From NCBI GenBank assembly GCA_000004985.1, contig GG738918.1: a stretch of 64,000 bases of DNA. The stretch is one strand, 5' to 3'. The notes under the pieces were generated by a model, which did no database searches, was not told the origin of the DNA, and worked only from the letters and a program-made list of their open reading frames with translations. Source of the DNA: Naegleria gruberi. Its lineage: Eukaryota. Positions 16,774-58,676 of this stretch are shown here, in pieces; within the stretch, counting starts at the first letter, position 1; each line of letters opens with the position of its first letter. A program made the position numbers and the translations under genes.

Positions 16774-19700
16774 ATGATGAAGGTTCTCTCACCCTTACAA
16801 CTAATTTCAATCATTAGCTGTTTCGTCCTGTTTCTATTCATCACAACCAACGCTCTAATAAATCCCTCAAATCCATCTTCTGATACAACAACATGGGATC
16901 TGGACAATGAAATTTGGTTTGCTCAATCCGCACCACTAACAGGTCCTTCCAAGAGGTAAGTATTGGAATTTCATACAAATTTCATTAATTGGAAATTTCC
17001 CGCCCAATTTTAAATTCAAATATTTAAAAAAAATATTAACATCGTGATGACCACATAAAAACAACATGTTCTTGTTTGGTGGTTCATAGACTTGGAATTG
17101 AAATGCGGGATGGTATTTTGACTGCCTTTAATGAATTCAATGCACTTGGAGGTGTTTTTGGAGGTAAAAAGTTGAAACTCTTAACTCTAGATGATGCCTA
17201 CGAACCAACCAACACAAAGGTGAATACCAATTTGCTTCTCTATAATATTACTCCTCCGAATACGTCAACATTGAATCAGGCTATTTTCAATAATAGTATC
17301 GCATTGGATGAGGTAAAAGGAAGAAAATACTTTGGCTTGATTGGTTTTGTTGGTACTCCAACAGTGCAGAATGTTTTTACTGATGTGCTGAGTCAGGTTT
17401 GGCCTCTGATTGGATCATTCACTGGAGTTGGTTGGCTTCGAACACCTTTCTATCCAAATATTATTAATATTCGTGCTTCGTATGATGACGAAACTGCTGC
17501 TATGGTTGAGTGGCTGGTAAATGTCAAATTGATAAGAAGGATTAGTATCATGTATCAGAATGATGCTTTTGGTAATGCTGGCTTGTCAGGAATTAATAGA
17601 TCATTGGTGAAGAGATTGAACATTTCGCTCTGTTCTAGTGGTACCTTCCCAAGAAATACTCTGCAGGTTGAGGATGCTTTCAATACAATTGGTAAATGCA
17701 ATCCAGAGGCAATAGTTTTGATTGGAACCTATGCTCCTCTTTCGAAATATATAAGATTGGTTAAGGATGTAGCCTTCTCCCCTTATAATTCAACACTTGG
17801 ATACAGCAAGGCCAATCAGATTACTTTCCTTACTGTGAGTTTTGTTGGATCATCAGCATTGACAGAAGATTTATCCTCCTATCAACCTCCTTCTCTTGCC
17901 TATGGAAAGACCTATTATACGGACAATGTTGTAATTTCTCAAGTGGTTCCAAGTCCAATGGATACCAGCTATCCCATTGTTTCATCCTATCAACGTTCTA
18001 GAAAGGAGTATGCTAAAAATTTGGGACTTGATCCATCACTTGTGTCGTTTACTTTTATTGAGCTAGAGGGTTATTTAGTAGGAAAACTTGTGTTTACTGT
18101 GCTCAAAAACATGATAGGATCATTAACAAGGTCTAACTTTATTGCTAGTATATATTTCGACTTTACATCTGGTGTTAGTGATGTAACAAATGCTGGTGGT
18201 TATTTCAATTTTGAATCGGTTCAAGTTGGTAGATACAAATATTGCAATGCTGTCAATTTGTACGATCATTTCCTTTCACCTAGCAATCAAACAGTAGTAT
18301 CTGGTTCATGTTCTGATAATTGTAATCAAGGACTTAAAATTATTTACCTCAGTAATATAGAGCTCAAGAACAATACTAACATTAGATTTAATATTTTCAG
18401 GGACTTTTCGTGGTATGACACCCAAAAATGTATTTCAGACACTGCTCAAATTCAAAAACAAATTATAATAGGTCAATCTATTTTATCAACCTCTTTGAGA
18501 GATCAATTTATTACTGTGGGTATTAATGCTGCTCTTTCAAAAAGAAATAGTAATTATACAAGAAATATTGAACTCAAAACACTATATCACGATGATTCAG
18601 CATCAATGTTGAAAAATGTTGTAGAACTGAAAACTCTCCATGAAAGTGTTGCATTTGTAGGGGTTTCTGCTGAGAGTATTAATTTGGACAGTTCAAATAC
18701 CAATTCAACCATAGATATTAGAGGATATTCAGAATTTTCAAATATTCCTTTATTTGGGGTGCGTTCAACAAATAGTATGGTATTGAGAAATACATTTGTT
18801 TCATCTTTTATTCATGTATTTCCATCAATAATGGATCAATTGGGTACCGTAATAGATTATAGCATGAAAAATGGAGAGAATAGAATAAGTATCGTCTATA
18901 GCAGTTCAAATTCAAATTCAGTCGAGGTTAGACAATTGTTAAAGTCTATTCTGGATTCGATTGGTATAGAGACCGATAGCGAGGTTGATGCCACTGAAAC
19001 AATTTCATTAGACTCAATTATTAATCAACTCAGTTCTAACACTGCTAACCCTCACTCCATCTTTCTTACTTTGAGTAATCCAGACCAAATTCTCAGTATC
19101 ATCTCACAAATCAAAAAGACCTATTCGAATTCTAGCCCACTATTTAGAAAGGGATTATCTGTTTATTTGATCAATTCACTATTTGATTCGAGTGTTGAAG
19201 CTATTTTTTCAACACCACTTTCTTTGATTGTCGATGAAAACTTGAGTGTAAAGTATGTGAGCCATCTTCCAGGATCCTACAACTCTACTCTTCAAGTAAT
19301 AACAGATTTTGAAAATTCAATGGATACATATTTTCCTTCAATTAATTATAGAAATAATACTGCTTATCTTGAGGGCTATATTATTGGAGCAATGATCTCT
19401 GCATTTATCGATAGTAGTGGAGGTAATTTAGACGCTAAAGGGCTATTGAACTACATGTATACTGTACAGCAAGTAACTTCTGCTGGTGTAAGCTTTGGAA
19501 AGCTGTCTGTTGGATCCAGCCCTTGTTCATTAGGATTAAGAACAAACTATATCTATGCTTACAATCAAAAATCACAGACTTTTTCTGAATTCAATATTCG
19601 AAACTATGATATGAATGGGTGTGGTCTTGTTAAATATAAGAATAGCAAAAAGCGTGCTGCTCCTACAATAGATATTTCCTCATTAGAACAACCTTTGGTG

Positions 19701-22046
19701 TTTGCCAGATTAATACCTTTCTCTGGTGATGAATCATTGAGTTCTTCAAAACTAAGTTTACTAAATGACGTAATCGATGCAGATGACTACTCGAAAGGAC
19801 TTTCATCTTACATAAACGTATACAATACCAAAACTACTAACCAGAAAATTCAAATAAGAACAGAATATTTCGGGTTTACAGATAGTAGATGGAGTCTTGA
19901 AACTAAGGTGAAAAATATGATAACTAGACAGAAGGTATTTGCATTTGTAACTGGTTTTTCTAGTGATGAAGATTTTGCGACAATTGACAATATCAAACAA
20001 ATTCTTACAACATATGATACGCCAATGCTTACAACTTCCAATTCTTTAGAATTGCGAAAACCATTCTCCAAATATTTTATCAATATGAAATCCTCTGTGT
20101 TAGATGAAGTTGCATCTCAAATTTCTTATTTCAAGAATTATGGATCTATTGCAATTATTTATCACAATATTCCTTACTGGACCAACCAATCAATTCCATT
20201 AATAGCAGAGTATTTGGAATATAATAGTATTTCAATATCTTTAATACAAGGCTTTAGTGGCAGCAGTGATTTTAGTTCATTGGGAGTTAAACTTCAAGAA
20301 GGAAATATTCAATCAATTGTTTTGATATCTGGGTCATCAATGTCAGCTTCATTCATATCTTCCTTGATTATGTATCAAACAACATATACGCCTAATATTG
20401 GAATTCTATCGGAAGCATATAATAATGACTTTGTTTCAAAGACCTTCACTGTTAACAATTACAAGTCTGCTCTATTTGCTCATAACTTCCTCTATTTGTC
20501 CACAATTACCTTTGCTCCAAAGATTTACAGCTCTGATATTTGTTCATTGTCAACCAGTTCTCTACATACTGACAAACAGAATTCTTTTATCTCACTATTC
20601 ATGTCTAACTACAATTACAATAGTACAGCAACACACATGACATTGGAAGGTTACTCTACAGGATTTTTCATTGAAACACTCCTTAATAGAATTTACCAAG
20701 AAATGGGAATTACGAAACTGAGTACTGATGATCTATTTTCAGGAATTTATTCTGCTCAAACATTTGATATTTCTGGATTGAATACTTTTGGACCATTTGG
20801 GTTGGAATGCTCCAGTCAATCAAGTCAATTAACAACAAATCAAACTTCTTCTTCTTGTAATCAGAAAAGTACAACAACTTGTGATTGCAACCAAGCCCCA
20901 AGAAAAGTCTACTTGAGCAGAGTCAATATCGTTCCAACAGAAAATTATTACACTTTCACTGATATTGATTATGCATTCGATTTCAGCAGTTCATGTGGTG
21001 TGAGTGTTGTCAAACCTGTGCTATCGACTACTGCAATTGTTTTGATTTCATTGGCTGGGTTCTTTGTCATTCTGCTCGTTATTATTGCCATATCAATCGC
21101 TTATGTTTGTATTTCAAGATCAGAAAGTAATACCAAGAATGCACCTAAAACTGGTAACATTTGCTGCTGCTTTACAGATATTCAGAACTCGACCGTTTTA
21201 TGGGAAAAGTGTGAAAAGGGAATGAGAGAAGGTCTCAAATTGCACAATGATGTTCTGCGTAATCAACTCAACTTATTCAAAGGTTTTGAGGTCAAGACTC
21301 AAGGAGACTGTTTCTATGTCGTATTCAAGGATCCACTGGATGGAATAGATTGGGCAATGAGCTGTCAACACGAATTAATGTCCATTGCTTGGCCATCCGA
21401 ACTATTACAAATGTATGATTGTAGAACAGAGTTTAATAATGAAACCAAGGAGATAGTTTGGAATGGAATTAGAGTTAGAATGGGCTTGCATTTTGGTTAT
21501 GCAGAGAAGATCTTTGACAAGGTAGTGAACAGACCAGACTACTTTGGTAATACTATCAATGCAGCTGCTAGAATTGAGGCTTCTACCCAAGGTGGTCAAG
21601 TTTTAATTAGTGAAGATATGTTCTCAGAGTTGTGGAAAATTCATGGAACTAATTTATTCAAATCCATCACTTTAAAGGAAGATAATCAAGCAACTTATTT
21701 GGAAACCATTAGTCCTTCATTTAAAAGTGTGAATGGTATAGGAGAAAGCAAAAAATCCAAGGATTTCCAGGCAATATTCAGCACAAAAGGAAGATCTATC
21801 AAATATAGTGAAAATACAGAATCAACTAAATCAGAAGATAGAAAGTTGAAATACCATGCAAACGATCTTGGAGAATTCAAGCTTAAAGGATTGCAAGGAA
21901 TGATAAGATTATTTGAAATCAAATCGGATAAAATATTGGAGAGAAAATACAGTGAAAATTTGAGAAATACTGAAGTAACAAAATTAGATATGTTAAAACA
22001 AGGTTCCCAACTAAAGTCAACTCGTACCATCCTTCCTCTAAACTAA
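16774..22046 (+). CDS. receptor-type adenylyl cyclase: signal peptide + LivK/ANF-receptor-type periplasmic-binding-protein ectodomain (~1000 aa) + single TM + class III cyclase domain; join(16774..16955,17090..22046)
   Basis: Exon 1 encodes a signal peptide (MMKVLSPLQLISIISCFVLFLFITTNA) and the start of a Peripla_BP_6-like motif (FAQSAPLTGPSK). A 134-nt intron (gtaagt…catag) joins in frame to …LGIEMRDGILTAFNEFNALGGVFGGKKLKLLTLDD… The TM helix is AIVLISLAGFFVILLVIIAISIAYVCI. The cyclase core is CCCFTDIQNSTVLWE…FEVKTQGDCFYVVF…RPDYFGNTINAAARIE. The substrate-specifying K (in VKTQGD) and D (in PDYFGN) indicate ATP rather than GTP. Confidence 0.75.
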
Positions 22047-23538: not shown

Positions 23539-26500
23539 TTATTTTTTAGATTTCTTTGAAGAGGATTTTTTGAGGTTTCGTTTTCTTTTCTTGTTATCAG
23601 AAACAGCAGCAATTTCTTCAATTCCAGTCTCTTGTTCATTATCACTGTCAAAATTTTCACCTCTCTTTGCATCGTTGTAGTCGTTTAAAGATGGAGCATT
23701 TGAATTTGATGAGAAGGCAAAAGAGAATAATTGGAAACTACCAACACCATGCAAGAGCATTTGAGTTTTCAAGAAAGTATCTGCATATCTGTATCCCTTT
23801 TCGGCAACTTGTTTCCAATAAGATTCAGTCTTGTTTTTTGAAGTGAATTTCTTTAAAAACTTCTTTCTTTCGGTGTCAACAGGTTTCTTCCAAAACTCTT
23901 CATCACTAATTGAATGAATTCCCTTCATTGCTCTAATATAATAAATGTAGACTGAAGATTTGGAGTTAGAAAGAATGTGTGTTGGTTTGCTTAGACCATA
24001 AACTTTGTTTCTTGTGGTAGGATTAATTTGATAATCGTACAAGGAAACTCTACCAACATGTTGAGCTCTGTCAAACAGTTTCACAACGTCATCAACAATT
24101 TTAAGTCCTGCAATTGTAGCATATTCAATAAAGGTATTTGGATTTTTTGCAACTTTAGCCAATGCTATTTCTCTAGAGTCATTATTCTTAATGCTGGCAA
24201 TATATTCTGTGACAGTTTCCAATAGTTTTTCTTTCATTTCATCAGTCAGTTTTTCATATTTTTCATTTTTGTCAATCTTTTTCATCAAACTGGTCAGTGA
24301 ATAGGACAAGTTTTCTACCGTAAGGATACTATTTAACTTGTCGACAACCTCATTAATTTGTTTTGGAGCAAATAATTCTTCATACAATGTATCTTCTAAT
24401 TGTAAACAAGCTCTTGTCATGGCATATTTATGAGGAGTTGTAATCTTTTGATCGTGTAAATATTCATAGAAAAGTCTAATATCATCATGCATAATAATGG
24501 CAGTTTCCATTTGAAAATGTTCACAAGTTAAGAATACACAAGTTTCAGCTCTGGCATATCCTAATTTTACATTTTCATCCAGAATTAAAAAATTATAGTT
24601 GGATTCAAAATTTGATTCCTTCAATATCTTCTTGTATCTTTCAACATAGCGACGCTCAGTTACAATGAAAAATAGATATTGTTGTTTCTCTAATTCAGTA
24701 AGAGGCGTAATCATTAGATTTGGTTTCCAATCTTCAGAATAAGAGATAGATAGCTTTTTTGATTCCCAATCAAAGGAAATGACAGCCTCATTACTATTTG
24801 AATCACTCATATCCAACTTTTCCAATATCAGATCGCTCTTTTTCAACTTTGGAAGGGAGAATTTACTAACCGGGTCTATGGGAACGACATACTCTTTAGT
24901 TTTTAAATCTGAGACCTGACGGCTCTCAGTAATAGGAAATTTCAAACCAGAGGTTGGAGAGAGTTGAGGATTTTGTAATTTTGATTTCAAGGTAATGTCA
25001 AGAGTGCTTGATTGAGGTTTCTTTTTCTTGTAAATTTCAAGAAGATCCTTAATCTTGTCCTTTTCTGATGATTTCAAACTTTGAATTTTTTCAGTATCTC
25101 TCAAAAATTCTGAAAGCTTGTCAGCGTAATCACAAATATAATTGTAAATTTCTAAGATCAAATCGTTTTCAATTTCTTCTTCTGTTTCAGGGTTCAGCGC
25201 ATTAACTAAACTTTTTACAAATTCTTCTTCCAACTCGGCTTCAATAGCAGGTAGCTTTAATTTCAGAAATGAATTCAAGTCACTTGCCAACTCATTAGCA
25301 TTCCCCTTCATTGTTTCTATTATTGCAAGAAAGTTTTTATGGAAATCTTCATATATTTCTTTCCATTCTTTTTTCTTTTCTTCTTTTTGAAATCTTGATT
25401 TTTTGCCTTTTTCTAACATTTCTTCCATGTCTGTCATATTAAAACATTCATCAATTCCCTTTTTGAAAAAATTGTACAAATTGGTGATGAATTGAATGGC
25501 TGAAAAAGCTTCATTGCCATCCATAAGAACCTCATAGGTTGGTGAAACAGTTTTTGTTTGCTCTATTTTAGCATTCAATTTTTCTAAAATGTTAGTTTTA
25601 AGGCTTGTCAATTTTTTTTTAAGATCAACTGAAGCTTCTTTCTCTTTAGTTGTCTTGCAGAGAATATTTGAAAGAATAATAATTGCAATGTCTCTTAATC
25701 TACCACAATTATTTTCAATAATTTTGAATCTTGCTTGTTCTATTTGAGTAGAAAACTGCTTTTTGAATATTTCCGATTTGTGGTTTTTAGGTGGAAATGC
25801 AAGAACTGAAACATTGGTGCTCAAGTCTGTTACAAACTCAATCTTGTTTTCCATAAAATTGGTTTCCTCATTCTTGCAATTATCTAACTTTTTTGCTCCT
25901 TCAATGTAAATATCGAAAAAGTTTGCTATTTGATCTCTAAAGTTGGATTTCAAGGTCTCATGATCATTTGTCAAGTCAGTACGCTCATATTCCTTAGCAT
26001 CCCCTTGCTCCTTGTCATTTACACCTATCATAATAGATGGAGCGAAAGCTTGTTTTGGTGAATAGATGCCATATTCCCAATATTTCTTAACAAGACCATC
26101 ATCAAAAATACTTCTGAAATTCTCAATTCCTGAAACAAGAATGCAAGTATCTTCCATACTTTCCTTAATGTACTGCTTATACAAATCTGATTGGGAATGT
26201 TCATCATAACCTGGCATATCTCTTACTATAATGTTGTTTGCCAATAGATATGGCTTGGAATATACAAAATCAACTTTTTAACTGTCAAACAATCAAATTC
26301 TCCCTTAGTCTTTTCGAAAAGTGCAATCCTTTGAAGAGCGCGCTTGCAAATTTCATCTTCACTCACAAGAGTATTATCTTTATCAATAGTTACAGTTTCT
26401 CTCTTGAAATCATAATCTTTTGCTTCATAATTTTTAACATTGCTCTTATTGAAAAGCTTTGCTCTCAACAAGTACTCATCCTGAGTACACATTACCTTGG

Positions 26501-26936
26501 TTAGGTTATAGTGCTCTCCGTACTTTACATCAATCACAGTGGTAGTGAGTCCTTTGCCACTACATCTACCAGAAGGAAGAGGGCTGTCGTATCTACATTC
26601 AAATCCACTAATCACATTATTGATCATGAAGGATTTGCCATAACCAGGCTTGGCAAAGAACGAAATTACAACCTTTCCCTTGATATTCTCGATTACTTTC
26701 CGCATTGCTTTGATGAAATTAGCACAATGCTTCATAACAACACCACTACTGCGATTATTATTGGTCGTAGTTTCAAAAAATTGTTCAACTTGTTCAAACA
26801 AATTAATCTCTGCTCTGATTTGATCATCTTGTCCTTTGAGAATTTTTTCTAGAGTTACCAACTCGCTCCTTCTCCTCTTAATGGTTGAGAGAGAGGCGCT
26901 TGGAAGGGTGGCTAGTAAGGAAGAAGATGAAGACAT
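23539..26936 (-). CDS. large P-loop GTPase, GBP/atlastin-like G domain + ~850 aa coiled-coil region + Lys-rich tail; complement(join(23539..26221,26266..26936))
   Basis: The N-terminal exon carries the G1 motif FAKPGYGKSFMINNVISG (GxxxxGKS-F/Y-L/M-xN as in GBP/atlastin). A 44-nt intron (gtatat…taag) connects the 249-aa and 901-aa ORFs in frame. The downstream region is K/E-rich and helical and ends KKRKRNLKKSSSKKSKK. The true start is probably MSSSSSLL at 26936 after an A9 run. Confidence 0.45.
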
Positions 26937-27492
26937 GGCGCAGTTTTTTTTTATCTGGAATCCCCACATCATCACACATTAATCATTAACATTTAATTGT
27001 GTGGTGATAGAGAATTATATTAACAAGCTGAATACGATTTGATAGGAAAGCAAATTTATTAATAATATGATTGAGTTAGGATTCGGAAATGGAGTGTAAT
27101 TTCCTTAATGGAATTTCAAATAAGGGTTCGAAAAGGTGTTGCTTAATTACGTAAAAAATTCCATACATTCAATGTCAAGACGAAATAATGGATAAGGTAC
27201 AGTACATCTACAATAACTACCAAAAAAAGTTATTAATGGTTATGGCATGGATTATGAGTGGTGACCATGAATATTCCAAAGTGAATGATAATGAAACTGA
27301 TAAAAATACCTAATTATATTCCAAAAATTATAAGTATTATTTAAATCATGATGATGTGGTTAAATTCTCGGAGTTAATAGGTGTGAAATTACACCAAGAA
27401 TCAATAGAGTGGTGATGGGAAAGCTCTCAAAATAAAAAAAAATATGAAAACAATTTGTGCTCATCTCACCACGATCGGAAAGCAAATTAATA

Positions 27493-30400
27493 ATGAATAA
27501 TAATAATATGGGACATACAGCCTTTGAGTATTTCCAATTATTGGATGGATTGGGAAAGGTTGAGTCATTATGTACCTATTTAAATACCCTCTTTGTGGCA
27601 ACAAATGATTGTTCTTTATCACGTTATATTATAATGTACTCTAGTGATAAAAAGAAGTTTTCTTGTTCATTGTACAATCAAAAGAAACAATTTACCAAGA
27701 AACCCGTAACTCAAATGTGTTCGGTATCTGAATTGGGAATGTTAATTTGTTTAACTGATGGGTGCATTAAATTATTTACATTGAGTATGATGAGAGAAAT
27801 TGATACAATCAAAAATTCACAGGTTTGTATAATTGTTGTGAAATGATTGATTGAATTTTAAAGAATTCGAAAAGCTTTGCTCTTAAAAAACACAATGGAG
27901 AATTTACAATGGCAGTTGCTTCCAAGAAAACTATCTCAATTTTAAAGTATGATAGCAAAGAATCAACATTTAAATTTATACAAGAAGTGGTACTTTCAGA
28001 TGAAGTGAAATCCTTGAATTGGAGCCGAGAAAAACTTTGTGTTGGTCTCAAAAAGGAATATTCATTAATTGATTTACAAAAGCTTCCCATAGGTCATCAA
28101 AAGGTAATGGATTATGTGAATCGAGTTCAACAAAATACTTTTGGATTGTCACTTCCAAATGAAACCGTTCTCTCTGTGAATAAGATAGGGGTATTTATCG
28201 ACTCTTCTGGTTCAAAATGTAGATACATTACTTGGAGTGAGGTTCCAAACATGGTGGCTTATTTAAATCCATTTCTCATTGCAGTATTATCAGCAGGACT
28301 TGAAGTTAGAATTTTACATGATCAACTTACAAGTGAGACTCTGGTCCAGAATATTCCACTCAAGGATGAAATCATTGCAATGAGCCAGCAAAATTTCATA
28401 GATTTTGACAATCCACAAAACATTGACAGAGGTATGGGGGTTGGATCTACTTCTAGGGATAAGATTGATAGGGATGATGAAATAGATCCATCAAATAGAT
28501 GCTTCCTTGCATCTAAGGATGCCATTTATGTAATAGTCATGAAGCAATTTGATTACCAAGCTGGAGAACTCTTACATAATCAACAATTCGAAAGGACTCT
28601 TCAAATCTGTGAAGCAGTTGAAAATAGCATCTACAAGTTGGAGAGTTGGAGAATTGAAGCTATTCACACAGAGTATGGTTTCTACCTTGTCACTAATGGT
28701 GATTTTGGAAAAGCTATGGTCCACTTCTCCAAGGGCAATGTTGATCCACGTATGATTATCTCTCTATTTCCTGATTTAATTCCAAGATCTATCGTGTATC
28801 GGGATTCATTTTTCCTACCTTACACACCAGAAGAGAAGCAAAAGATTGAGCTCTTCCTTGCAGATACTGAACAACGAAAAACTGGCCTTCAGGCTCTCGT
28901 TCAATATTTACTTAATATAAGAAAAGATTTGGACAAGTACTTTATTGAGACAGTAGATACATCACTCTTAAAGGCACTTGTTTTAACAAATGATCCTCGC
29001 ACAGAGGAATTCATTTCTCAACCAAATCATTGTAATATTTCAGAGAGTTTAAGCTTTATTCTATGTGATGACCAAAACTTTAGAGAGTTGGTTCTTTTCT
29101 GCAAGACTAAAGACTTACATGCAAAGGAACAGCAATTACTGAAATTATTGGAGGAAAAGGAATTTCTTCTTTCAATTTTGAAGAAAAATGGCTTGTCCCT
29201 TGAATACGCACCTATTTGCTACAGAAATGATAGAAAGATTGTTTTGGAAGCTTTCAAACAAAATGAAAAAGCACTTAAATATGCATCCCAAGAATTAAAG
29301 GGTGATAAGATACTCAAATTACACACTTCCATTGTACATGTTGTAGATTTTGTTTACTTGGAAGAAGAAGGGCTCTATAATTTGTTATCCAAGACAATAG
29401 ATTCGAATATTATCGGCTTTAATGATGATGAATCTGATAATGCATCTGAATTGCCTCCTTCAGAGTGTTCTTTAGAGTTTGTACAGACTTGTATTGTTAT
29501 TTGGATTTTAAAGCTTATAGGTGAGAACTACTTGCAGGTAGAAGCAAACATTACGGAAACAATTGACTATTTCCTATTTTGTATGAACTTGGAAACCTTG
29601 TTAAAAGATCGTATCCAAAAGATCACCAAAAGAAGCAAACTAGTTGAAACAATTAATGATATTTCAAACGAATTTTCGTTTCACGCTTACTCAGAGCACG
29701 AGTATAGCTCAATAATTTATTTGCTTTACAAAACGAACGGGAAAGATATCAAATCAATTTTATCAGAATATAGAAATACCACAGGAACTACCCATAGAGT
29801 GCTTACAGCAGCTATTATTTTTAGAGAAAACTCTTCCTTCAAGCGCTATCATTTATTGTCCACGTTGGGTTATGGAGCTGAGGGGGTTGTTTTCAAAGCT
29901 TTCGATTTGGAGCTTAAAGAAACTTTTGCCATCAAAATCAAATTTGAATCAGAATATGATTTAGATCACACAAAAAAGAGAATTGAGTTTTTAAAGCAAG
30001 ATATTGAAGGTAAAATCAAATGTTTTGATTGTGGAATTATAGAGTTTGGACATTTAAAGACAAAGCATTTGTATACTATAATGGAAATGGGAGATGAATC
30101 GCTTAGGAAAATAATAGGAAAGAATAATATTAATCAAAAAACAATGGAAAAGAGTCACTTAATTGAAATACTTGAGATATTTTCCAAGATTTTATATTCA
30201 GTTCAAACAATACACAATCACAACATTGCTCATAGAGATTTGGATCCAAATAATATTGTTAAAGTGAATGACACATTTAAAATTATTGATTTTGATCAAT
30301 CTAGAGTTGTGGAACTAGGAAAATCAATAACAATCAATGTTGGAAAGTATTCATATATGGCTCCAGAAGTTTCAGATAACACCTACGAAGAAGAGAACCG

Positions 30401-31001
30401 TCAAGATTTAACATACGACTCAAAACTGATTCAAAATAGAGAGGTATCCACATCGTGTGATATTTTCTCTATGGGCTGTATTTTTTTGGAATTACTAACT
30501 AATTGTCCATTAAGATTGGACAAAGGATTCATCAATGGAACAGACCTCTCACTCTTCAATGAAAAGCATAGATATTTTACCTATGATGGATTGTATTTTC
30601 ACTCAGCAGTAGTTACATTGGAGGGAGAATTGAAACTCCATCATGCCATAAAATTGTGGATAGACAACCATATTAACAATCAATTCGGAGTCAATGAGAT
30701 AATAACAAGGTGTCTCATTTCAATGATACAGAGAAACGCCAAAAAGAGATTGGACTGTTTCACCTATAAGTTAATCATTGATTCTGTGATCAATTATTTA
30801 AAAGGTGAAATTACAGACCTGAGCATGGCTATTGAGAATGAAATGAAAGAATTGCGTGAAGTGAGACCCTTGTTGAACTATTCTGAAATGATCCAAGAAA
30901 ATTTCAATTTACAAAAAGATGTGGACATGCTGAGAAAAGAAAATGAAAAACTCAAGTTGGAGTTGGAAGAATTGAGAAGAGAAAATAAGAAATTACATTA
31001 A
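27493..31001 (+). CDS. Vps39/Vam6-like CNH-domain protein fused to a C-terminal protein kinase domain with a terminal coiled coil; join(27493..27822,27864..31001)
   Basis: The ATG at 27493 encodes MNNNNMGHTAFEY. The CNH-type N-terminus is AFEYFQLLDGLGKVESL…LFVATNDCSL…LGMLICLTDGCIKLFTL. A 41-nt intron (gtttgt…ttaaag) joins in frame. Kinase motifs are GYGAEGVVFKA, AIKIK, HRDLDPNNIV, DFDQSR (DFG→DFD) and YMAPE. The C-terminal EMKELREV…LRKENEKLKLELEELRRENKKL is a coiled coil. Confidence 0.65.
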
Positions 31002-31196: not shown

Positions 31197-33575
31197 ATGT
31201 CTCTCCATAATAATTTGACAAGATGTCTTGTCATTTTCTGCTTGATCTTGAACCTTACTCAAGCGAATTTTCTGCTCGCATTCGAAGGTTCTGTTGGGAC
31301 AGGCACATGTGGCTTCAAAGATGGTGTTCCAAAGGACCAAGCACTCATTGGAAAGGCAACTTCATTATTCGAATCTCTAGTTGGTGACCTGTACTTTTAC
31401 GATACCTCAAACTTTCGTATAATGAAAGTTTCACAACAAGACAATCTTGTTTCCTCCATCATTGGCAATGGAAAGCTTGGTTATACAGAAGATCATTGTC
31501 AAGCAGATAAATGTGGTCTCACATTCGTGGATGGAATCTCACTAGTTTCAGATAAAATCTTTTATTTTGATAGAATTATAACACCAACGAGTAGTACAAG
31601 AATTCTGAGAGTGGTTGGATCTTCTGGTGTAGTGAATACTATTTGGCAAGTTGACTATTGGTTTCCAACAATGAATGACAATGAAAAGAGGACGTTTGTA
31701 GTGAGTGATGATGGAAAGTATTTATTCTTTAATCATGATAAGTTTATTTGGAAGATTAATTTGGCAAGTATGAAGATGGAGCTGTTTTATACTGAGCCTT
31801 TATCTAACAAGATTACAACGTTTACAATTTCAAGTAGTGGATTGATTTATTCAACTTTCAAAAATCAGTTTAGTTTCTTATATAGAAGTTTCAATATGGA
31901 TCCATCATCTGCCATTCTACTTACGAGTACATCTAACAACAATGATGCCTATCAAATCAACAAGGATTTGGGATTTGTTTCTCTTCCCAAATCAATTTAT
32001 TGCTCTAACTGTATATTTAGTTCAATTCAAACTTATGGAAATACTTTCAATTTCACGTTTAGTTTGAATTTTCAAGCTGTATACGCAGGAATAGCAGATC
32101 AATATCTAGTCCTATTGAGAAACAAATATTCCAATAATAGAATTGAATTCTCCAATCTTGATAATGGTTTCTTTTTCATTATTGATGATTGTAAGATTAC
32201 AAAATCAGATTACACTTCCCTTAATCAAGGTTGCACTGCCAGTTGCTCCAATCAAGGAACCTGTGTTGGACAAATTTGCAGTTGCAATGATGGATGGTTG
32301 GGTGATTCAATTTGTTCCAAATTTACATGTGAAAAAGTTGATGGTTGTGGCTTGAATGGACATTGCATTGGACCTAATCAGTGCGAATGTAAGAAGGGAT
32401 GGTCTGGTCCTAGTTGCAACGATTTTGATTGTTCGATGGCTAAGAATTGCAGTGGTCATGGCAAGTGTATTGGTTCAAATTATTGTGAATGTCAATCGGG
32501 ATGGCAAGGTTCTGACGATTGCTCTCAATTTTCATGTGAAAAGATTACGTGTCAGAATAATGGACAATGTAATGGTCCTAATCAATGTGAATGTCCATCT
32601 GGTTACAAGGGATCTCCTGATTGCTCAACAGTTTCTTGTGAACTAGTTGGAAATTGCAATTCACATGGATCTTGTGTCGCTCCAAATACTTGTAAATGTA
32701 AGGAGGGATGGAGTGGTAATGACTGCTCTCAATTTACATGTTCTCCATCGTGTCAGAATGGAGGAGTGTGTACAGCTCCTAATCAATGTAATTGTCCATC
32801 TGGATATAGAGGTAGTTTAGATTGTTCGAAACCTTCTTGTGAAGATCAGGGAAATTGTTATCTGAACGGAGAATGTGTTGGTCCAAATACTTGTAAATGT
32901 AATGTTGGTTGGCTTGGATCTAATTGTAAAGATCCAGATTGTCAATTATCATGCAATAATAGAGGAAAATGTTCGAAACCATACGAATGTGAATGTGAAG
33001 ACGGATGGAAAGGAATCAATTGTGAAGTATTTAGCTGTGAAAAACTCAATAATTGTAATAGTGCTAATCACCATGGCTCATGTATTGGTCCAAATATTTG
33101 TAAATGTAACGAAGGATGGAAAGGATTTCAATGTGATATTCCAACTTGTGAATTGGTTAGAAATTGTTCGAATGTTGGCAGTTGTGTATCTGCCAATACG
33201 TGCTCCTGTCCTTCAAAAAAGTATGGATCTAGCTGTCAATTCGATTTCGATTGTTTTGGTTTGGCACCTGACAATCCAAGTGTTTGTGAAAGTAGAGGAA
33301 CATGTGTAGGTCCAAATAATTGCAATTTTGGAGGTATTATTGCTTTCGTTGTAATATTCGTGATTCTTTTGGTAATTGTCTTTGTAGGAATTGTTAGCTT
33401 TATTCTGTTAGTTCTTTATAGAAAGCGAAAAAGAGAACAAAAGGAAGAAGAAAAACTCTTACAAAAGGCAATTTTAGCTGGAACTATTATAGCAGCAGCT
33501 GAACAACTGGCATCAAACAATAATGACCCAATAGATATTGAAAATAGAAACAACAGAGAAGGCGAAGGTGTTTAA
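31197..33575 (+). CDS. type I membrane protein: signal peptide + ~330-aa N-terminal beta-repeat region + ~14 tenascin-type EGF-like repeats + TM + short cytoplasmic tail
   Basis: ATG at 31197. Repeats of the form C-x-C-x2-GW-x-G-x2-C occur about every 31 aa (CECKKGWSGPSC, CKCKEGWSGNDC and so on). The TM helix is IIAFVVIFVILLVIVFVGIVSFILLVL, followed by the stop-transfer YRKRKREQKEEEK. Confidence 0.7.
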   Translation: MSLHNNLTRCLVIFCLILNLTQANFLLAFEGSVGTGTCGFKDGVPKDQALIGKATSLFESLVGDLYFYDTSNFRIMKVSQQDNLVSSIIGNGKLGYTEDHCQADKCGLTFVDGISLVSDKIFYFDRIITPTSSTRILRVVGSSGVVNTIWQVDYWFPTMNDNEKRTFVVSDDGKYLFFNHDKFIWKINLASMKMELFYTEPLSNKITTFTISSSGLIYSTFKNQFSFLYRSFNMDPSSAILLTSTSNNNDAYQINKDLGFVSLPKSIYCSNCIFSSIQTYGNTFNFTFSLNFQAVYAGIADQYLVLLRNKYSNNRIEFSNLDNGFFFIIDDCKITKSDYTSLNQGCTASCSNQGTCVGQICSCNDGWLGDSICSKFTCEKVDGCGLNGHCIGPNQCECKKGWSGPSCNDFDCSMAKNCSGHGKCIGSNYCECQSGWQGSDDCSQFSCEKITCQNNGQCNGPNQCECPSGYKGSPDCSTVSCELVGNCNSHGSCVAPNTCKCKEGWSGNDCSQFTCSPSCQNGGVCTAPNQCNCPSGYRGSLDCSKPSCEDQGNCYLNGECVGPNTCKCNVGWLGSNCKDPDCQLSCNNRGKCSKPYECECEDGWKGINCEVFSCEKLNNCNSANHHGSCIGPNICKCNEGWKGFQCDIPTCELVRNCSNVGSCVSANTCSCPSKKYGSSCQFDFDCFGLAPDNPSVCESRGTCVGPNNCNFGGIIAFVVIFVILLVIVFVGIVSFILLVLYRKRKREQKEEEKLLQKAILAGTIIAAAEQLASNNNDPIDIENRNNREGEGV

Positions 33576-33632: not shown

Positions 33633-36590
33633 TTAAAAAATAGATTTAAATTCATTAGTCTTGATGAATGATAGATCAGTAATTTCTGGATAACCAAAAG
33701 CTGTTGGTCCAACAGTTTTCAATCCTTTTGGAGTGTGGAATTTTGGAGTTCCTCCCAAAACTAGAACAGAAATTCTGAATCCATATCTGAGCTCTTCTGT
33801 TTGAATGGCCAAACCAGTTTGAGAATCGACTATGGAAATAATGTTTGGAACAATGGCAAGAGATTGAATACTTTCTTGAGGAATGGTTTCCAATGATGGG
33901 TCATAATCTTTGACAATGACAGCTCTTAAAAATTCATTTTGGAATTCCACAATACATATCTTTCCTTGATCCTTTCCTAATCCTGATATTACACATTTTC
34001 CAATATTGAATCCTGATGTTGTTTTTCTATTGACATCAGAAATTTTACCACTAAAGAAAAGATCTCCATTATTCGAGTTCAAAATAGTTTGAATTGGATC
34101 CAAACTTTGAGAATGAGCTTCTAAAATACCTTTACCAATCGACCACACACCAGAATAACTGTTGTGAACAGTAGATTGCATTAATTCCTTCTTACTGATA
34201 GGATTTAAAATGATACCTGACATGGAACCCATTTGAACTGCAATAGGACGAAGAATACTTTCCAAACCCTTGCACGGATTTCTAGGATTGACACTAGTGA
34301 TCAATACTTGATTATTCATATCATCCAATAGCATGGTAGGAACAGGTGAACAGCCATCAATAAAGTGAGTGACCATATCAAGTTCTGGATAAGCTCTTCC
34401 CATTCCATCACAATCAACAACTGGTAAACCACTAGTAGCTGCAATGAGGAGTGGTGTAATTGAGTTTGAACCACCAATTTCAATACAGAAAATTGCTTCA
34501 ATCTTCTTTTTTGTGAAATTGGACATGGACTCAATGGCTGGTAAGAATTCTTCAACAATACTCTTTTCTTGAATGACCAGAGGTGCTCCCATCATTGCAA
34601 CAGGCAAGACAAAGGCATCTTCTGCGATTGATTCAGGAGAGATGATCTTGATTTCCTTGCCGTGTGAAAGGAGACTTCTGGCAAGAACAGCAGATTGTTT
34701 TGGTGAACCACCACCTCCACTAGAAACAACTCCTGATCCAATTTCAATGCAGTCAATATCTGTCTTGGTTAAAATCCATTCCTTTCGATTATCCTTATCT
34801 GAAACTGAAATATTTGGTTGATATGATTTGATATTTACAATGGATTGATTTGTCTTTTCGTTACTGAATTGTTCCTTTCTTTCTTCTCTCTTTGAAGAAG
34901 TGAGAGGTTTTTCAATTAGAAATTCCAAATTATTGGAAATGGAATTAAAGTCCAAATTACCAACAGCCTTACACAAAAATCTACAACTATCACCTGGAAT
35001 ATAAGCAAGAGGAATGCATTCAAAGTCAACTATCTCAACACTTTCTGGTTTGGCTCCATTCTTAATGGCCTTTTCAGTGGCCTCCTTTTTGACCGTCTCA
35101 ATAACCTTCTCTCTGTTTCCACCACTAGCAGAAATGTTAATCACTGTATCAACTCTACCAGAAACATCACAAAGAGCTGCACCTACAGCATTGGCACATT
35201 GGTAGTGTTTTGGCTTGATGATTTTGCTTACACCCTCAAATTTTCTATTCTCATCAATGAGAGATGATCCACCTCCCACTAATAGAACAGGAACATTGGT
35301 AGAAGCAATTTTCACATGGTCAATTGCTTCCTCAACAATGGAATGAATCTTGTCGACAATTTGTGGTGCTCTCTTTCCCAATCTTTGAGTTGTTTGAGAA
35401 AGTAATTCTGGAGAAGCTCCCCATTCACAATTTTTGAGTAATCCAAGTGCTACAGCTGCATCAGTCGTTGTCACAGTGTTTCCACCATATGAAAGTGATT
35501 CAGTGAAAATATTAAATCCAACACTCTTTGGACCAATTTGAATACTTGAATTTTCCTCATTTTCATTGAAAGATACAATGGAGCCACCACCCATAGCCAC
35601 AGAATAAACATCTGGTACTCTAAAATTAGTTGGCACATTACCAATGCTGACATTATTATTCGAGAGTCTTGGAAATCCATTCACCAATACACCAACATCT
35701 GTTGTTAAGCCACCAATATCCACCACAATTGCATTCTCCACACCTGATAAGAAGGCTGCTCCTTTCATTGAATTTGTTGGACCTGATTGAATTGTGAAAA
35801 TTGGAAATTCAGTTACCAAATTAGGAGGAATTAAGGTACCATCATTTTGAGTCAAGAAGAATGGACAAGCATACTTTGATCGAATGGCTTCTTGAAATGC
35901 ATAACAAATTGATCTGGAAACTCCCTTTAAACAAGCATTCAAAATTGAAGCATTTTCACGTTGCATGAATCCCATCTCTGAAATCTCATTCGAACAAGTA
36001 ATTTTCAATTCTGAATCATGATTGAAAAATTCTCTAATCCAATCAGCTACTTGTTTCTCTTGTTCACTATTAATTGGTGAAAAGATACCTGAAATGACAA
36101 TATTCTTCAAATTCTTTTCCTTGAGTGATTGACACATTTGCTGCACTTGATCCTGATTGACTGGCAATATTTCTCTACCATCCACTTGATATCCACCATC
36201 AATTTTATAATAATCTCCCAAAACCAACTCTTTCAATCTCTCAGGAAATGATTCACACGGTGGCAATGAATTATTTGCAGAGGAGCCAAGTCTACACACA
36301 GCCACCTTTTCCAAATCAGGAGAGAAGGAAAGAATGGCATTCACAAAGTGTGTCGTTCCAATAATTACACACAATATCTTACCTTTCCTTTGTCCACTTA
36401 CTTGTTGATCATTCTTCATCATCATGACTTGATCAATTGCCTTCATGATGCCACTTGTGATATCAGGAGAAGTTTGTGTTTTAATTGAATGTTCCACGAT
36501 ATTTCCTGCCGAATAATTAATCAGGGCACAATCTGTTGTTGTGGAACCAACATCAATGCCAATAATAAAGAGAGGTGGTGATAAAGACAT
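33633..36590 (-). CDS. hydantoinase/oxoprolinase-family (Hydant_A_N/Hydantoinase_A) protein fused to a C-terminal DUF917 domain
   Basis: Probable start MSLSPPLFIIGIDVGSTTTDCALI at 36590 (ATPase-fold phosphate-1 motif). A second IVVDIGGLTTDVGV motif lies mid-protein. The C-terminal ~400 aa are a Gly-rich DUF917-like module (GSGVVSSGGGGSP…IEIGGSNSI…VVDCDGMGRAYPELDM). Confidence 0.6.
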   Translation of the reverse strand: MSLSPPLFIIGIDVGSTTTDCALINYSAGNIVEHSIKTQTSPDITSGIMKAIDQVMMMKNDQQVSGQRKGKILCVIIGTTHFVNAILSFSPDLEKVAVCRLGSSANNSLPPCESFPERLKELVLGDYYKIDGGYQVDGREILPVNQDQVQQMCQSLKEKNLKNIVISGIFSPINSEQEKQVADWIREFFNHDSELKITCSNEISEMGFMQRENASILNACLKGVSRSICYAFQEAIRSKYACPFFLTQNDGTLIPPNLVTEFPIFTIQSGPTNSMKGAAFLSGVENAIVVDIGGLTTDVGVLVNGFPRLSNNNVSIGNVPTNFRVPDVYSVAMGGGSIVSFNENEENSSIQIGPKSVGFNIFTESLSYGGNTVTTTDAAVALGLLKNCEWGASPELLSQTTQRLGKRAPQIVDKIHSIVEEAIDHVKIASTNVPVLLVGGGSSLIDENRKFEGVSKIIKPKHYQCANAVGAALCDVSGRVDTVINISASGGNREKVIETVKKEATEKAIKNGAKPESVEIVDFECIPLAYIPGDSCRFLCKAVGNLDFNSISNNLEFLIEKPLTSSKREERKEQFSNEKTNQSIVNIKSYQPNISVSDKDNRKEWILTKTDIDCIEIGSGVVSSGGGGSPKQSAVLARSLLSHGKEIKIISPESIAEDAFVLPVAMMGAPLVIQEKSIVEEFLPAIESMSNFTKKKIEAIFCIEIGGSNSITPLLIAATSGLPVVDCDGMGRAYPELDMVTHFIDGCSPVPTMLLDDMNNQVLITSVNPRNPCKGLESILRPIAVQMGSMSGIILNPISKKELMQSTVHNSYSGVWSIGKGILEAHSQSLDPIQTILNSNNGDLFFSGKISDVNRKTTSGFNIGKCVISGLGKDQGKICIVEFQNEFLRAVIVKDYDPSLETIPQESIQSLAIVPNIISIVDSQTGLAIQTEELRYGFRISVLVLGGTPKFHTPKGLKTVGPTAFGYPEITDLSFIKTNEFKSIF

Positions 36591-36825
36591 TTTTTCTATA
36601 TGATTATTAATATTGTGAAGATTAAAATTTAAATGATGAAGAGATAGAAGGCAAAGGAACAATTTTTTTCAATGATTGGCTGTGTGAAAGGATCCAGTAC
36701 GGAACGAGAAGATTGGGATATTGCTTTCCAATTTGAAACTGTAATCAAAAGATCAAGCTTCCGAAGAGACAAATTATCTTTTACAATTTATGAAAAAAGA
36801 TTTGAAAAAAATTCAACAAATGGTC

Positions 36826-58626: not shown

Positions 58627-58676
58627 NNNNNNNNNNNNNNNNNNNNNNNNNNNNNNNNNNNNNNNNNNNNNNNNNN
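58627..58676. other. assembly gap (50 N)
   Basis: Run of n characters. Confidence 1.

What the first reader, a model, noticed from the sequence alone, without database searches (positions are those of the whole stretch)
27493..31001. Vps39/Vam6-type CNH domain fused to a protein kinase with atypical catalytic motifs
The N-terminal 250 aa have the citron-homology pattern found in Vps39/Vam6/TGFBRAP1. The C-terminus is a protein kinase whose HRDLKPxN is HRDLDPNN and whose DFG is DFD, followed by a coiled coil. CNH+kinase fusions are known (NIK/citron kinases), but there the kinase is N-terminal. Here the order is inverted, and the DFG→DFD change raises the question of whether it is active or a pseudokinase scaffold on an endolysosomal tether-like protein.
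Basis: partly seen in the sequence, partly recalled or inferred. Interest (0 to 1): 0.5.

Follow-up and report, generated by a model that had tools for sequence, protein, structure and literature searches.

The report
Half a Vps39 fused to a kinase
The amoeba Naegleria gruberi carries, beside its normal Vps39 lysosome-tethering gene, an old diverged partial copy whose front half is fused to a protein kinase from a species-specific family with an unusual but conserved active site; it is a real, mildly interesting example of gene shuffling.

Summary
Window 27493-31001 (+) encodes a 1155-aa protein in two exons split by a 41-nt GT..AG intron. Pfam finds CNH (aa 64-270), Vps39_1 (474-570), DUF4116 (542-589) and Pkinase (772-993). 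A leucine-zipper coiled coil ends the protein. HRDLDPNN and DFD are present as described.

The organism is Naegleria gruberi. The gene is not its Vps39. A canonical 905-aa Vps39 (XP_002678158.1) lies on another scaffold.

The window gene is a chimeric paralogue. Residues 1-540 are a partial duplicate of Vps39, keeping the ancestral intron. They are 64% identical in protein and 70% in DNA to the canonical copy, and have evolved about 11-fold faster. Selection is still purifying (dN/dS 0.18, dS about 1.4). At about nt 29159 this part joins in frame to a member of an eight-gene N. gruberi family: a DUF4116 repeat array, a linker, a kinase and a coiled coil.

All eight carry HRDLDPxN and DF[D/E], so the odd motifs are a conserved family trait, not decay. 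The Vps39 C-terminal half, which docks onto Vps11 in HOPS, is missing.

Most likely (inferred) the Vps39 part targets a dimeric atypical kinase to endolysosomal membranes outside HOPS. Catalytic activity and the single transcript remain untested.

The parts
27493..27822 (+). Exon 1 (aa 1-110): start of the Vps39-derived beta-propeller. A second in-frame ATG at 27508 matches the start (MGHTAFEY) of orthologous Vps39 proteins.
   Evidence: 66% identity to N. fowleri Vps39 aa 1-108; alignment to canonical N. gruberi Vps39.
27823..27863 (+). 41-nt GT..AG intron at the same position as the 43-nt intron of the canonical Vps39 gene.
   Evidence: sequence; stop codon inside; length not a multiple of 3. 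(L003 intron at the homologous codon).
27864..29159 (+). Vps39-derived part of exon 2 (aa 111-542): rest of the CNH propeller (Pfam CNH aa 64-270 = nt 27682-28343) and the proximal alpha-solenoid with Vps39_1.
   Evidence: Pfam. (tblastn homology ends at 29159). (blastn 69.9% nt identity to the canonical locus over 27508-29159). (64% aa identity, dN/dS 0.18).
29136..29192 (+). Fusion junction: Vps39 '...LLKLLEEK' followed by DUF4116 'EFLLSILKKNG...'. It is in frame, with no gap or N run.
29157..29300 (+). Remnant DUF4116 repeats (about 2 units; paralogues have 5-11).
   Evidence: E 2e-14. (paralogue arrays). (tblastn of paralogue arrays).
29301..29846 (+). Family-specific helical linker between the DUF4116 repeats and the kinase (aa ~590-771). 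It is conserved in the paralogues and matches no Pfam family.
29847..30788 (+). Protein kinase domain (aa ~772-1085). G-loop GYGAEG 29868-29885; beta3 Lys in FAIKIK 29925-29942; HRDLDPNN 30231-30254; DFD 30288-30296; MAPE 30357-30368.
30846..31001 (+). C-terminal coiled coil ending in a 4-heptad leucine zipper, then the stop codon.
   Evidence: sequence. (weak DivIC/HALZ hits). (long helix, pLDDT about 70-84). (present in paralogues).

Best explanation
This is a genuine, long-maintained chimeric gene of Naegleria gruberi. A DNA-level partial duplicate of Vps39 (beta-propeller/CNH plus proximal alpha-solenoid, aa 1-540, ancestral intron retained) became joined in frame to a member of a N. gruberi-specific kinase family. 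That family is built as a DUF4116 repeat array, a helical linker, an atypical kinase and a C-terminal leucine zipper. The Vps39 piece replaced most of the kinase's DUF4116 array. The canonical Vps39 persists elsewhere and presumably serves HOPS. Inferred mechanism: the chimera lacks the Vps39 C-terminal helices and zinc finger that lock Vps39 onto Vps11, so it cannot be a HOPS subunit. Its Vps39-derived module most likely acts as a targeting or partner-recognition domain, for Rab7-type GTPase or endolysosomal membranes or, given its fast evolution, a new partner. This would bring a coiled-coil-dimerised kinase module to that site. The kinase keeps the beta3 Lys, HRD Asp, Mg-binding Asn and DFx Asp. 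It has Asp in place of the catalytic-loop Lys, Asp/Glu in place of the DFG Gly, and no fixed alphaC Glu. All of these are conserved family-wide. It is therefore a constrained, probably nucleotide-binding active site whose phosphotransfer competence is undetermined. Shown: architecture, paralogy, selection and family-wide motifs. Inferred: targeting role, dimerisation and activity.
For: Architecture: (Pfam). Organism and public model. Vps39 homology stops at aa ~540 / nt 29159 and no Vps39 C-half exists in the window. Canonical N. gruberi Vps39 (P0203, XP_002678158.1, 905 aa, other scaffold). Paralogue status: 64% aa identity to canonical against 87% between canonical N. gruberi and N. fowleri. 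The NJ tree groups the window copy with N. gruberi Vps39 at 80% bootstrap. Shared intron position and 69.9% nt identity. Selection: dN/dS 0.18 with dS 1.38; 149 versus 13 lineage-unique substitutions, p 1e-26; ORF intact over 1155 codons in a 33% GC genome. Kinase family: seven N. gruberi paralogues at 36-49% identity and about 100% coverage for five of them (61% and 83% for P0047 and P0051). Six of them carry 5-11 DUF4116 repeats; the seventh, P0051, has none in its model. HRDLDPxN and DF[D/E] are present in all eight. The window copy keeps 113 of 123 family-invariant positions. HOPS docking through the Vps39 C-terminus and Rab binding at the N-terminal region: PMC9592082. MNK1/2 carry DFD in place of DFG: PMC7215568; that MNKs are active kinases is general knowledge.
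Against: No transcript or protein evidence could be obtained. No orthologue of the chimera was found in any other species, so conservation of the fusion itself cannot be tested. The Vps39-derived part has changed 46 of 199 positions that are invariant in four canonical heterolobosean Vps39 proteins, so Rab7 binding may be lost. The AF2 model of the kinase half is poor (pLDDT 57). Lys-to-Asp in the catalytic loop and a non-conserved alphaC Glu argue against ordinary phosphotransfer.
Confidence: 0.75

Rival explanations
1. Assembly or annotation artefact: two separate genes (a Vps39 paralogue and a DUF4116-kinase) were joined by a chimeric contig or are really two transcription units.
For: The window comes from a draft scaffold with N gaps elsewhere (58627-58676 and 60015-62777). 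The fusion is known from a single assembly only. No transcript data were available.
Against: There is no gap at the junction, and the reading frame is continuous across it, with homology in the same frame on both sides. The N-half is a deeply diverged copy (70% nt), not the canonical gene, so a mis-join would need a missing C-half of a second Vps39. None was found: none of the ten top Vps39 C-half hits that were looked up is from N. gruberi. There is no stop, start context or intergenic-like sequence at the junction.
Confidence: 0.07
2. A decaying relic: a non-functional by-product of a rearrangement that is on its way to becoming a pseudogene.
For: The Vps39-derived half evolves about 11-fold faster than the canonical copy and has lost 23% of otherwise invariant positions. 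The HOPS-docking half is truncated away. The kinase motifs are atypical.
Against: dS is about 1.4 yet dN/dS is 0.18, and there is no stop in 1155 codons. The kinase half retains 92% of family-invariant residues, the same as other paralogues. The intron splice sites are intact.
Confidence: 0.06
3. A variant HOPS/CORVET-type subunit: the chimera still assembles into a class C tethering complex and brings a kinase or pseudokinase into it.
For: It retains the CNH propeller and Vps39_1. Heterolobosea have duplicated class C core subunits in N. fowleri (Herman 2021, supplementary file 9).
Against: The C-terminal helices and zf-Vps39_C that interlock with the Vps11 coiled coil and RING are absent (PMC9592082).
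Confidence: 0.05
4. Pure pseudokinase scaffold: the gene is real, but the kinase-like domain only binds partners or nucleotide and never transfers phosphate. The Vps39 piece and the zipper would make it an adaptor. (This concerns the catalytic status only and is compatible with the chimeric-paralogue explanation.)
For: Catalytic-loop Lys is replaced by Asp, DFG Gly by Asp/Glu, and the alphaC Glu position is Arg in the window copy and variable in the family. 'HRDLDP' occurs in no searched paper.
Against: The G-loop, beta3 Lys, HRD Asp, Asn, DFx Asp, APE and alphaF Asp are invariant across paralogues that are only 40-50% identical overall. Such conservation is more typical of a working active site. 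DFD also occurs in MNK1/2, which are active kinases (general knowledge).
Confidence: 0.35

Closest known systems
Vps39/Vam6 (HOPS-specific subunit), in particular N. gruberi XP_002678158.1 and N. fowleri Vps39
   Same: The N-terminal 540 aa are homologous throughout: CNH beta-propeller plus proximal alpha-solenoid with Vps39_1. Identity is 64% and 62% respectively, and the intron position is the same.
   Different: It lacks the distal alpha-solenoid (CHCR) and zf-Vps39_C, so it has no Vps11 docking module. It is a fast-evolving paralogue, not the orthologue. It carries DUF4116, a kinase and a coiled coil instead.
N. gruberi DUF4116-repeat kinases (P0045-P0051; annotated 'protein kinase', 'serine-threonine kinase' or 'predicted protein')
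   Same: The linker, kinase and C-terminal coiled coil are collinear at 36-49% identity. The HRDLDPxN and DF[D/E] signature is shared.
   Different: Six of the seven paralogues have 5-11 N-terminal DUF4116 repeats and no Vps39 sequence (P0051 has no DUF4116 hit). The window gene keeps about 2 repeats behind a Vps39 half.
CNH-containing kinases: citron kinase, MRCK, and GCK-IV/MAP4K (NIK, TNIK, MINK) (architecture from general knowledge)
   Same: They combine a protein kinase, a coiled coil and a CNH beta-propeller in one polypeptide.
   Different: In those proteins the kinase is N-terminal and the CNH C-terminal, the kinases are AGC or STE20 types with canonical motifs, and the CNH is not of the Vps39 type. 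Here the order is reversed, the CNH is Vps39-derived, and the kinase has no clear group (best PDB matches CDPK, TTK and MAPK at only E about 1e-11). This is an independent fusion, not a family member.
MNK1/MNK2
   Same: They carry DFD in place of DFG (PMC7215568) and are active kinases (general knowledge).
   Different: They have a canonical catalytic-loop Lys and are an unrelated kinase family. They serve only as a precedent that DFD alone is compatible with activity.

Membership tests
Vps39/Vam6 (HOPS subunit) | N-terminal CNH beta-propeller | tested here: met
   Pfam CNH aa 64-270, E 2e-25. PDB sequence hit to 7zty, a chain named 'CNH domain-containing protein'.
Vps39/Vam6 (HOPS subunit) | Vps39_1 domain (PF10366) in the proximal alpha-solenoid | tested here: met
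   Pfam E 8e-8, aa 474-570. Homology to orthologues runs to aa ~540.
Vps39/Vam6 (HOPS subunit) | Distal alpha-solenoid (CHCR, PF00637) and C-terminal zf-Vps39_C (PF10367), which dock on the Vps11 coiled coil and RING | tested here: not met
   Neither is found by Pfam. The alignment shows no homology after aa ~540. tblastn finds no C-half in the 64-kb window. Role of the C-terminus: PMC9592082.
Vps39/Vam6 (HOPS subunit) | Being the organism's orthologue of Vps39 | tested here: not met
   The canonical 905-aa XP_002678158.1 exists. It is 87% identical to N. fowleri Vps39, against 62-64% for the window copy.
Eukaryotic protein kinase (Pkinase, PF00069) | Profile match and core residues: G-loop, beta3 Lys, HRD Asp, catalytic-loop Asn, DFx Asp, APE | tested here: met
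   Pfam E 1e-24. GYGAEG, FAIKIK, HRD, N907, D919 and MAPE are present and invariant in the family.
Eukaryotic protein kinase (Pkinase, PF00069) | Catalytic-loop Lys of HRDLKxxN (Ser/Thr kinases) | tested here: not met
   Asp in all eight family members (HRDLDPxN).
Eukaryotic protein kinase (Pkinase, PF00069) | Gly of DFG | tested here: not met
   DFD in the window gene, P0045 and P0048; DFE in the others. The MNK precedent shows this is not disqualifying.
Eukaryotic protein kinase (Pkinase, PF00069) | alphaC Glu pairing with the beta3 Lys | tested here: inconclusive
   HMMER alignments to CDPK and TTK place Arg at that position. A Glu lies 2 residues later in two members and 1 residue earlier in four. 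The structure model is too poor to decide.
Eukaryotic protein kinase (Pkinase, PF00069) | Phosphotransferase activity | not testable with these tools
   Needs a biochemical assay.
CNH-kinases (citron/MRCK/MAP4K-NIK type) | N-terminal AGC or STE20 kinase followed by a C-terminal citron/NIK-type CNH | tested here: not met
   Domain order is CNH then kinase. The CNH part is orthologous to Vps39. The kinase has no AGC or STE20 affinity in the PDB search.
N. gruberi DUF4116-repeat kinase family | DUF4116 repeats, conserved linker, kinase with HRDLDPxN and DF[D/E], and a C-terminal coiled coil | tested here: met
   Only about 2 DUF4116 units remain, against 5-11 in six of the paralogues.

The most novel reading that the evidence does not exclude
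The HRDLDPxN / DF[D/E] kinases of N. gruberi are a new class of catalytically competent ePK-fold enzymes with altered chemistry: a different metal or charge arrangement at the gamma-phosphate site, or a non-phosphotransfer reaction. The window gene would show evolution re-targeting such an enzyme to Rab7/endolysosomal membranes by capturing half of a HOPS subunit.
Probability: 0.15. Interest if true: 0.6.

Novelty: new variant of a known kind. Interest (0 to 1): 0.38.

Why it matters
It is a clean, datable example of domain capture. Half of a conserved tethering subunit was duplicated, cut off from its complex-docking module and grafted onto a lineage-specific kinase. It was then kept under purifying selection while evolving rapidly.

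It offers a natural separation-of-function allele of Vps39, with the propeller and proximal solenoid but no HOPS docking.

It also points to an eight-member kinase family whose catalytic-loop Lys is replaced by Asp in every member. No paper in the searched library contains that motif. Testing the family would show whether it is a pseudokinase family or an unusual enzyme.

There is a practical lesson too. Comparative surveys of trafficking genes could mistake this gene for N. gruberi's Vps39, and the public model lacks its first exon.

Tried and rejected
(1) I first inferred that this was N. gruberi's only, truncated Vps39, because searches showed no other N. gruberi hit. This was wrong. The canonical protein was hidden behind its 90%-cluster representative P0004 and appeared only in the cluster listing. 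In addition, the search for homologous proteins seems to list only hits within about 0.6-1.7 times the query length; one search did not return P0002, P0003 or P0007.

(2) Synteny with the Willaertia Vps39 locus (L001): no shared neighbours, so uninformative.

(3) The Logan contig L002 carrying the best Vps39 C-half hit is a different heterolobosean (40% GC, 41% identity), not N. gruberi.

(4) Search for a reciprocal fusion product or a second Vps39 C-half: none of the ten top hits looked up was from N. gruberi.

(6) AF2 of the C-terminal half with the 8-sequence alignment gave pLDDT 57. Foldseek returned only generic kinases at TM about 0.2-0.4, so it says nothing about the linker or active-site geometry.

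(7) Literature: no paper describes this fusion or the family. 'HRDLDP' occurs in no held paper. The four papers mentioning DUF4116 were judged from titles and abstracts only, and none appears to concern Naegleria. The N. gruberi genome paper is not held.

(8) P0052, a metagenomic DUF4116+kinase, has canonical HGDLK and DFG, so it does not belong to this family.
Full report
**What is there**

The window is AT-rich eukaryotic DNA (about 33% GC). The interval 27493-31001 (+) holds two in-frame ORF segments separated by a 41-nt GT..AG intron at 27823-27863. The intron contains a stop codon and its length is not a multiple of three. Splicing gives a 1155-aa protein.

Pfam finds four domains:
- CNH, aa 64-270, E 2e-25.
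- Vps39_1, aa 474-570, E 8e-8.
- DUF4116, aa 542-589, E 2e-14.
- Pkinase, aa 772-993, E 1e-24.

Weak coiled-coil-type hits fall at the extreme C-terminus, where the sequence is a four-heptad leucine zipper (DMLRKENEKLKLELEELRRENKKL). HRDLDPNN lies at aa 900-907 and DFD at aa 919-921.

**Organism and public record**

The protein is 100% identical to a 1030-aa 'predicted protein' of Naegleria gruberi (P0001). That public model starts at the internal Met at 27909 and omits exon 1. Exon 1 is real:
- N. fowleri Vps39 residues 1-108 align to 27508-27822 at 66% identity, and residues 112-549 align to 27858-29159.
- The canonical N. gruberi-type Vps39 gene has a 43-nt intron at the homologous codon.

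**Only half a Vps39**

Canonical heterolobosean Vps39 proteins carry CNH, Vps39_1, CHCR and zf-Vps39_C. These are N. fowleri P0002 (910 aa), Willaertia P0003 (941 aa) and Acrasis P0007 (912 aa). They align to the window protein only up to residue about 540, at nt 29159. Nothing resembling the Vps39 C-terminal half occurs anywhere in the 64-kb window.

**It is a paralogue, not the organism's Vps39**

I first thought N. gruberi had only this truncated copy. The cluster listing corrected that. The 90%-identity cluster represented by the metagenomic protein P0004 contains XP_002678158.1 / D2VCG0_NAEGR (P0203). This is a 905-aa N. gruberi 'CNH domain-containing protein' on a different, 467-kb scaffold, and its cluster representative P0004 carries the full canonical domain set.

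Over 531 shared columns the identities are:
- Canonical N. gruberi versus N. fowleri Vps39: 87%.
- Window copy versus canonical N. gruberi Vps39: 64%.
- Window copy versus N. fowleri Vps39: 62%.

A neighbour-joining tree groups the window copy with N. gruberi Vps39 at 80% bootstrap, and puts it inside Naegleria at 76%. The duplication therefore most likely occurred in the N. gruberi lineage.

At the DNA level, window 27508-29159 aligns to the canonical locus (L003, a 99.9%-identical environmental contig) at 69.9% identity. The alignment runs straight through the shared intron and ends at the junction. This was a DNA-level duplication, not a retrocopy.

**Selection**

With N. fowleri as outgroup, the window copy has 149 lineage-unique amino-acid changes against 13 in the canonical copy (p about 1e-26). 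It has also changed 46 of 199 positions that are invariant in four canonical heterolobosean Vps39 proteins.

Even so, Nei-Gojobori dN/dS against the canonical copy is 0.18, with dS about 1.4. The ORF is unbroken over 1155 codons. Constraint is relaxed or redirected, but the gene is not decaying.

**The kinase half**

Residues 541-1155 recover seven N. gruberi paralogues (P0045-P0051) at 36-49% identity. Coverage is 95-100% for five of them, and 61% and 83% for P0047 and P0051. Nothing comparable was found from N. fowleri, Willaertia or elsewhere.

Pfam finds N-terminal arrays of 5-11 DUF4116 repeats in six paralogues. P0051 has none. All seven have the kinase domain. The alignments show that a conserved helical linker and a C-terminal coiled coil are shared as well. 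In the window gene, the Vps39 half has replaced all but about two DUF4116 units. The switch is at LLKLLEEK|EFLLSILKKNG.

All eight family members carry:
- HRDLDP[N/Q/K]N in the catalytic loop.
- DFD or DFE in place of DFG.
- An invariant G-loop, beta3 Lys, HRD Asp, catalytic-loop Asn, DFx Asp, P-E of APE and alphaF Asp.

The window copy keeps 113 of 123 positions that are invariant in six paralogues. That is as good as other divergent members. The atypical motifs are therefore a conserved family signature, not degeneration after the fusion.

On catalytic status, the evidence is mixed:
- MNK1/2 carry DFD in place of DFG (PMC7215568) and are active kinases (general knowledge), so DFD alone is not disqualifying.
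- The Lys-to-Asp change is more unusual. 'HRDLDP' appears in no searched paper.
- The canonical alphaC Glu position is Arg in the window protein, by HMMER alignment to CDPK and TTK. It is not fixed in the family.
- The AF2 model was too poor to resolve the geometry (pLDDT 57). Foldseek gave only generic kinase hits.

Whether the domain transfers phosphate is open. I put roughly 35% on a pure pseudokinase.

**Mechanism (inferred)**

In yeast HOPS, the C-terminal helices of Vps39 interlock with the coiled coil and RING of Vps11. The Rab (Ypt7) interaction sites lie in the peripheral N-terminal regions, predicted on the alpha-solenoid (PMC9592082).

The chimera keeps the N-terminal propeller and proximal solenoid and lacks the docking half. 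It should therefore act outside HOPS. The Vps39-derived module would serve as a targeting or partner-recognition domain, and the leucine zipper would dimerise the kinase module. The strong acceleration of the N-half leaves open that its binding specificity has changed.

**Rivals**

- Mis-assembly or two separate genes (about 7%). It is disfavoured by the gap-free in-frame junction. It is also disfavoured because the N-half is an old diverged copy, and none of the ten top Vps39 C-half hits that were looked up is from N. gruberi.
- Decaying relic (about 6%). It is disfavoured by dN/dS and the intact ORF.
- HOPS-integrated variant (about 5%). It is disfavoured by loss of the Vps11-docking module.

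Transcript evidence could not be obtained with the tools.

**Comparison and novelty**

Known CNH kinases (citron, MRCK, MAP4K/NIK) have the opposite domain order, canonical AGC or STE20 kinase domains, and non-Vps39 CNH domains (general knowledge). This gene is an independent fusion and not a member of those families.

It fails membership of Vps39 proper, lacking the C-half and not being the orthologue. It is a member of the N. gruberi DUF4116-kinase family. No paper describing the fusion or the family was found.

I rate it a new variant of known kinds: a domain-shuffled kinase and a paralogue of a tethering subunit. It is modestly interesting (0.38), mainly for the family-wide Lys-to-Asp active site and as a natural separation-of-function copy of Vps39.

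Noticed in passing
window 27493-27908: The public N. gruberi model for this gene (P0001, 1030 aa) starts at the internal Met at 27909 and omits exon 1 and the 41-nt intron. The homology-supported protein is 1155 aa, or 1150 aa if the second ATG at 27508, which matches orthologue starts, is used.
   Followed up: yes
window 29082-29159 (aa ~517-542): The last Vps39-derived stretch (FRELVLFCKTKDLH...) resembles a DUF4116 repeat (DREIVLEAVKQNGL...). tblastn with the paralogue DUF4116 arrays already aligns from about 29082, upstream of the homology switch. This could be short helical-repeat microhomology at the recombination site, or chance.
   Followed up: partly
window 17076-22046 (+): A 1656-aa ORF combines a periplasmic-binding-protein-type domain (Peripla_BP_6) with an adenylate/guanylate cyclase catalytic domain, suggesting a receptor-type cyclase.
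   Followed up: no
window 31197-33575 (+): A 792-aa protein immediately downstream has a long array of teneurin/Delta-like EGF repeats. By eye, the translation also shows a hydrophobic N-terminal stretch (possible signal peptide) and a hydrophobic C-terminal stretch (possible transmembrane segment).
   Followed up: no
window 33633-36662 (-): A 1009-aa ORF fuses hydantoinase/oxoprolinase domains (Hydant_A_N, Hydantoinase_A) to S-Me-THD N- and C-terminal domains.
   Followed up: no
window 23539-26975 (-): Two long ORFs (901 aa and 249 aa) on the minus strand overlap by 19 nt at 26226-26244. They have no Pfam match and are probably one gene interrupted by a short intron or frameshift.
   Followed up: no
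window 58627-58676 and 60015-62777: Runs of N (scaffold gaps) show that the window is from a draft assembly. Neither is near the gene.
   Followed up: yes
paralogues P0046, P0047, P0051 (one 573-kb scaffold) and P0048, P0049 (one 424-kb scaffold): Several DUF4116-kinase paralogues share scaffolds, and P0046 and P0051 are 91% identical. This suggests recent tandem expansion of the family. The window gene sits alone on its 222-kb scaffold.
   Followed up: partly
tool behaviour: the search for homologous proteins shows only 90%-cluster representatives and appears to restrict hits by length relative to the query. This hid the named N. gruberi Vps39 behind an unnamed metagenomic representative and nearly led to a wrong conclusion.
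   Followed up: yes
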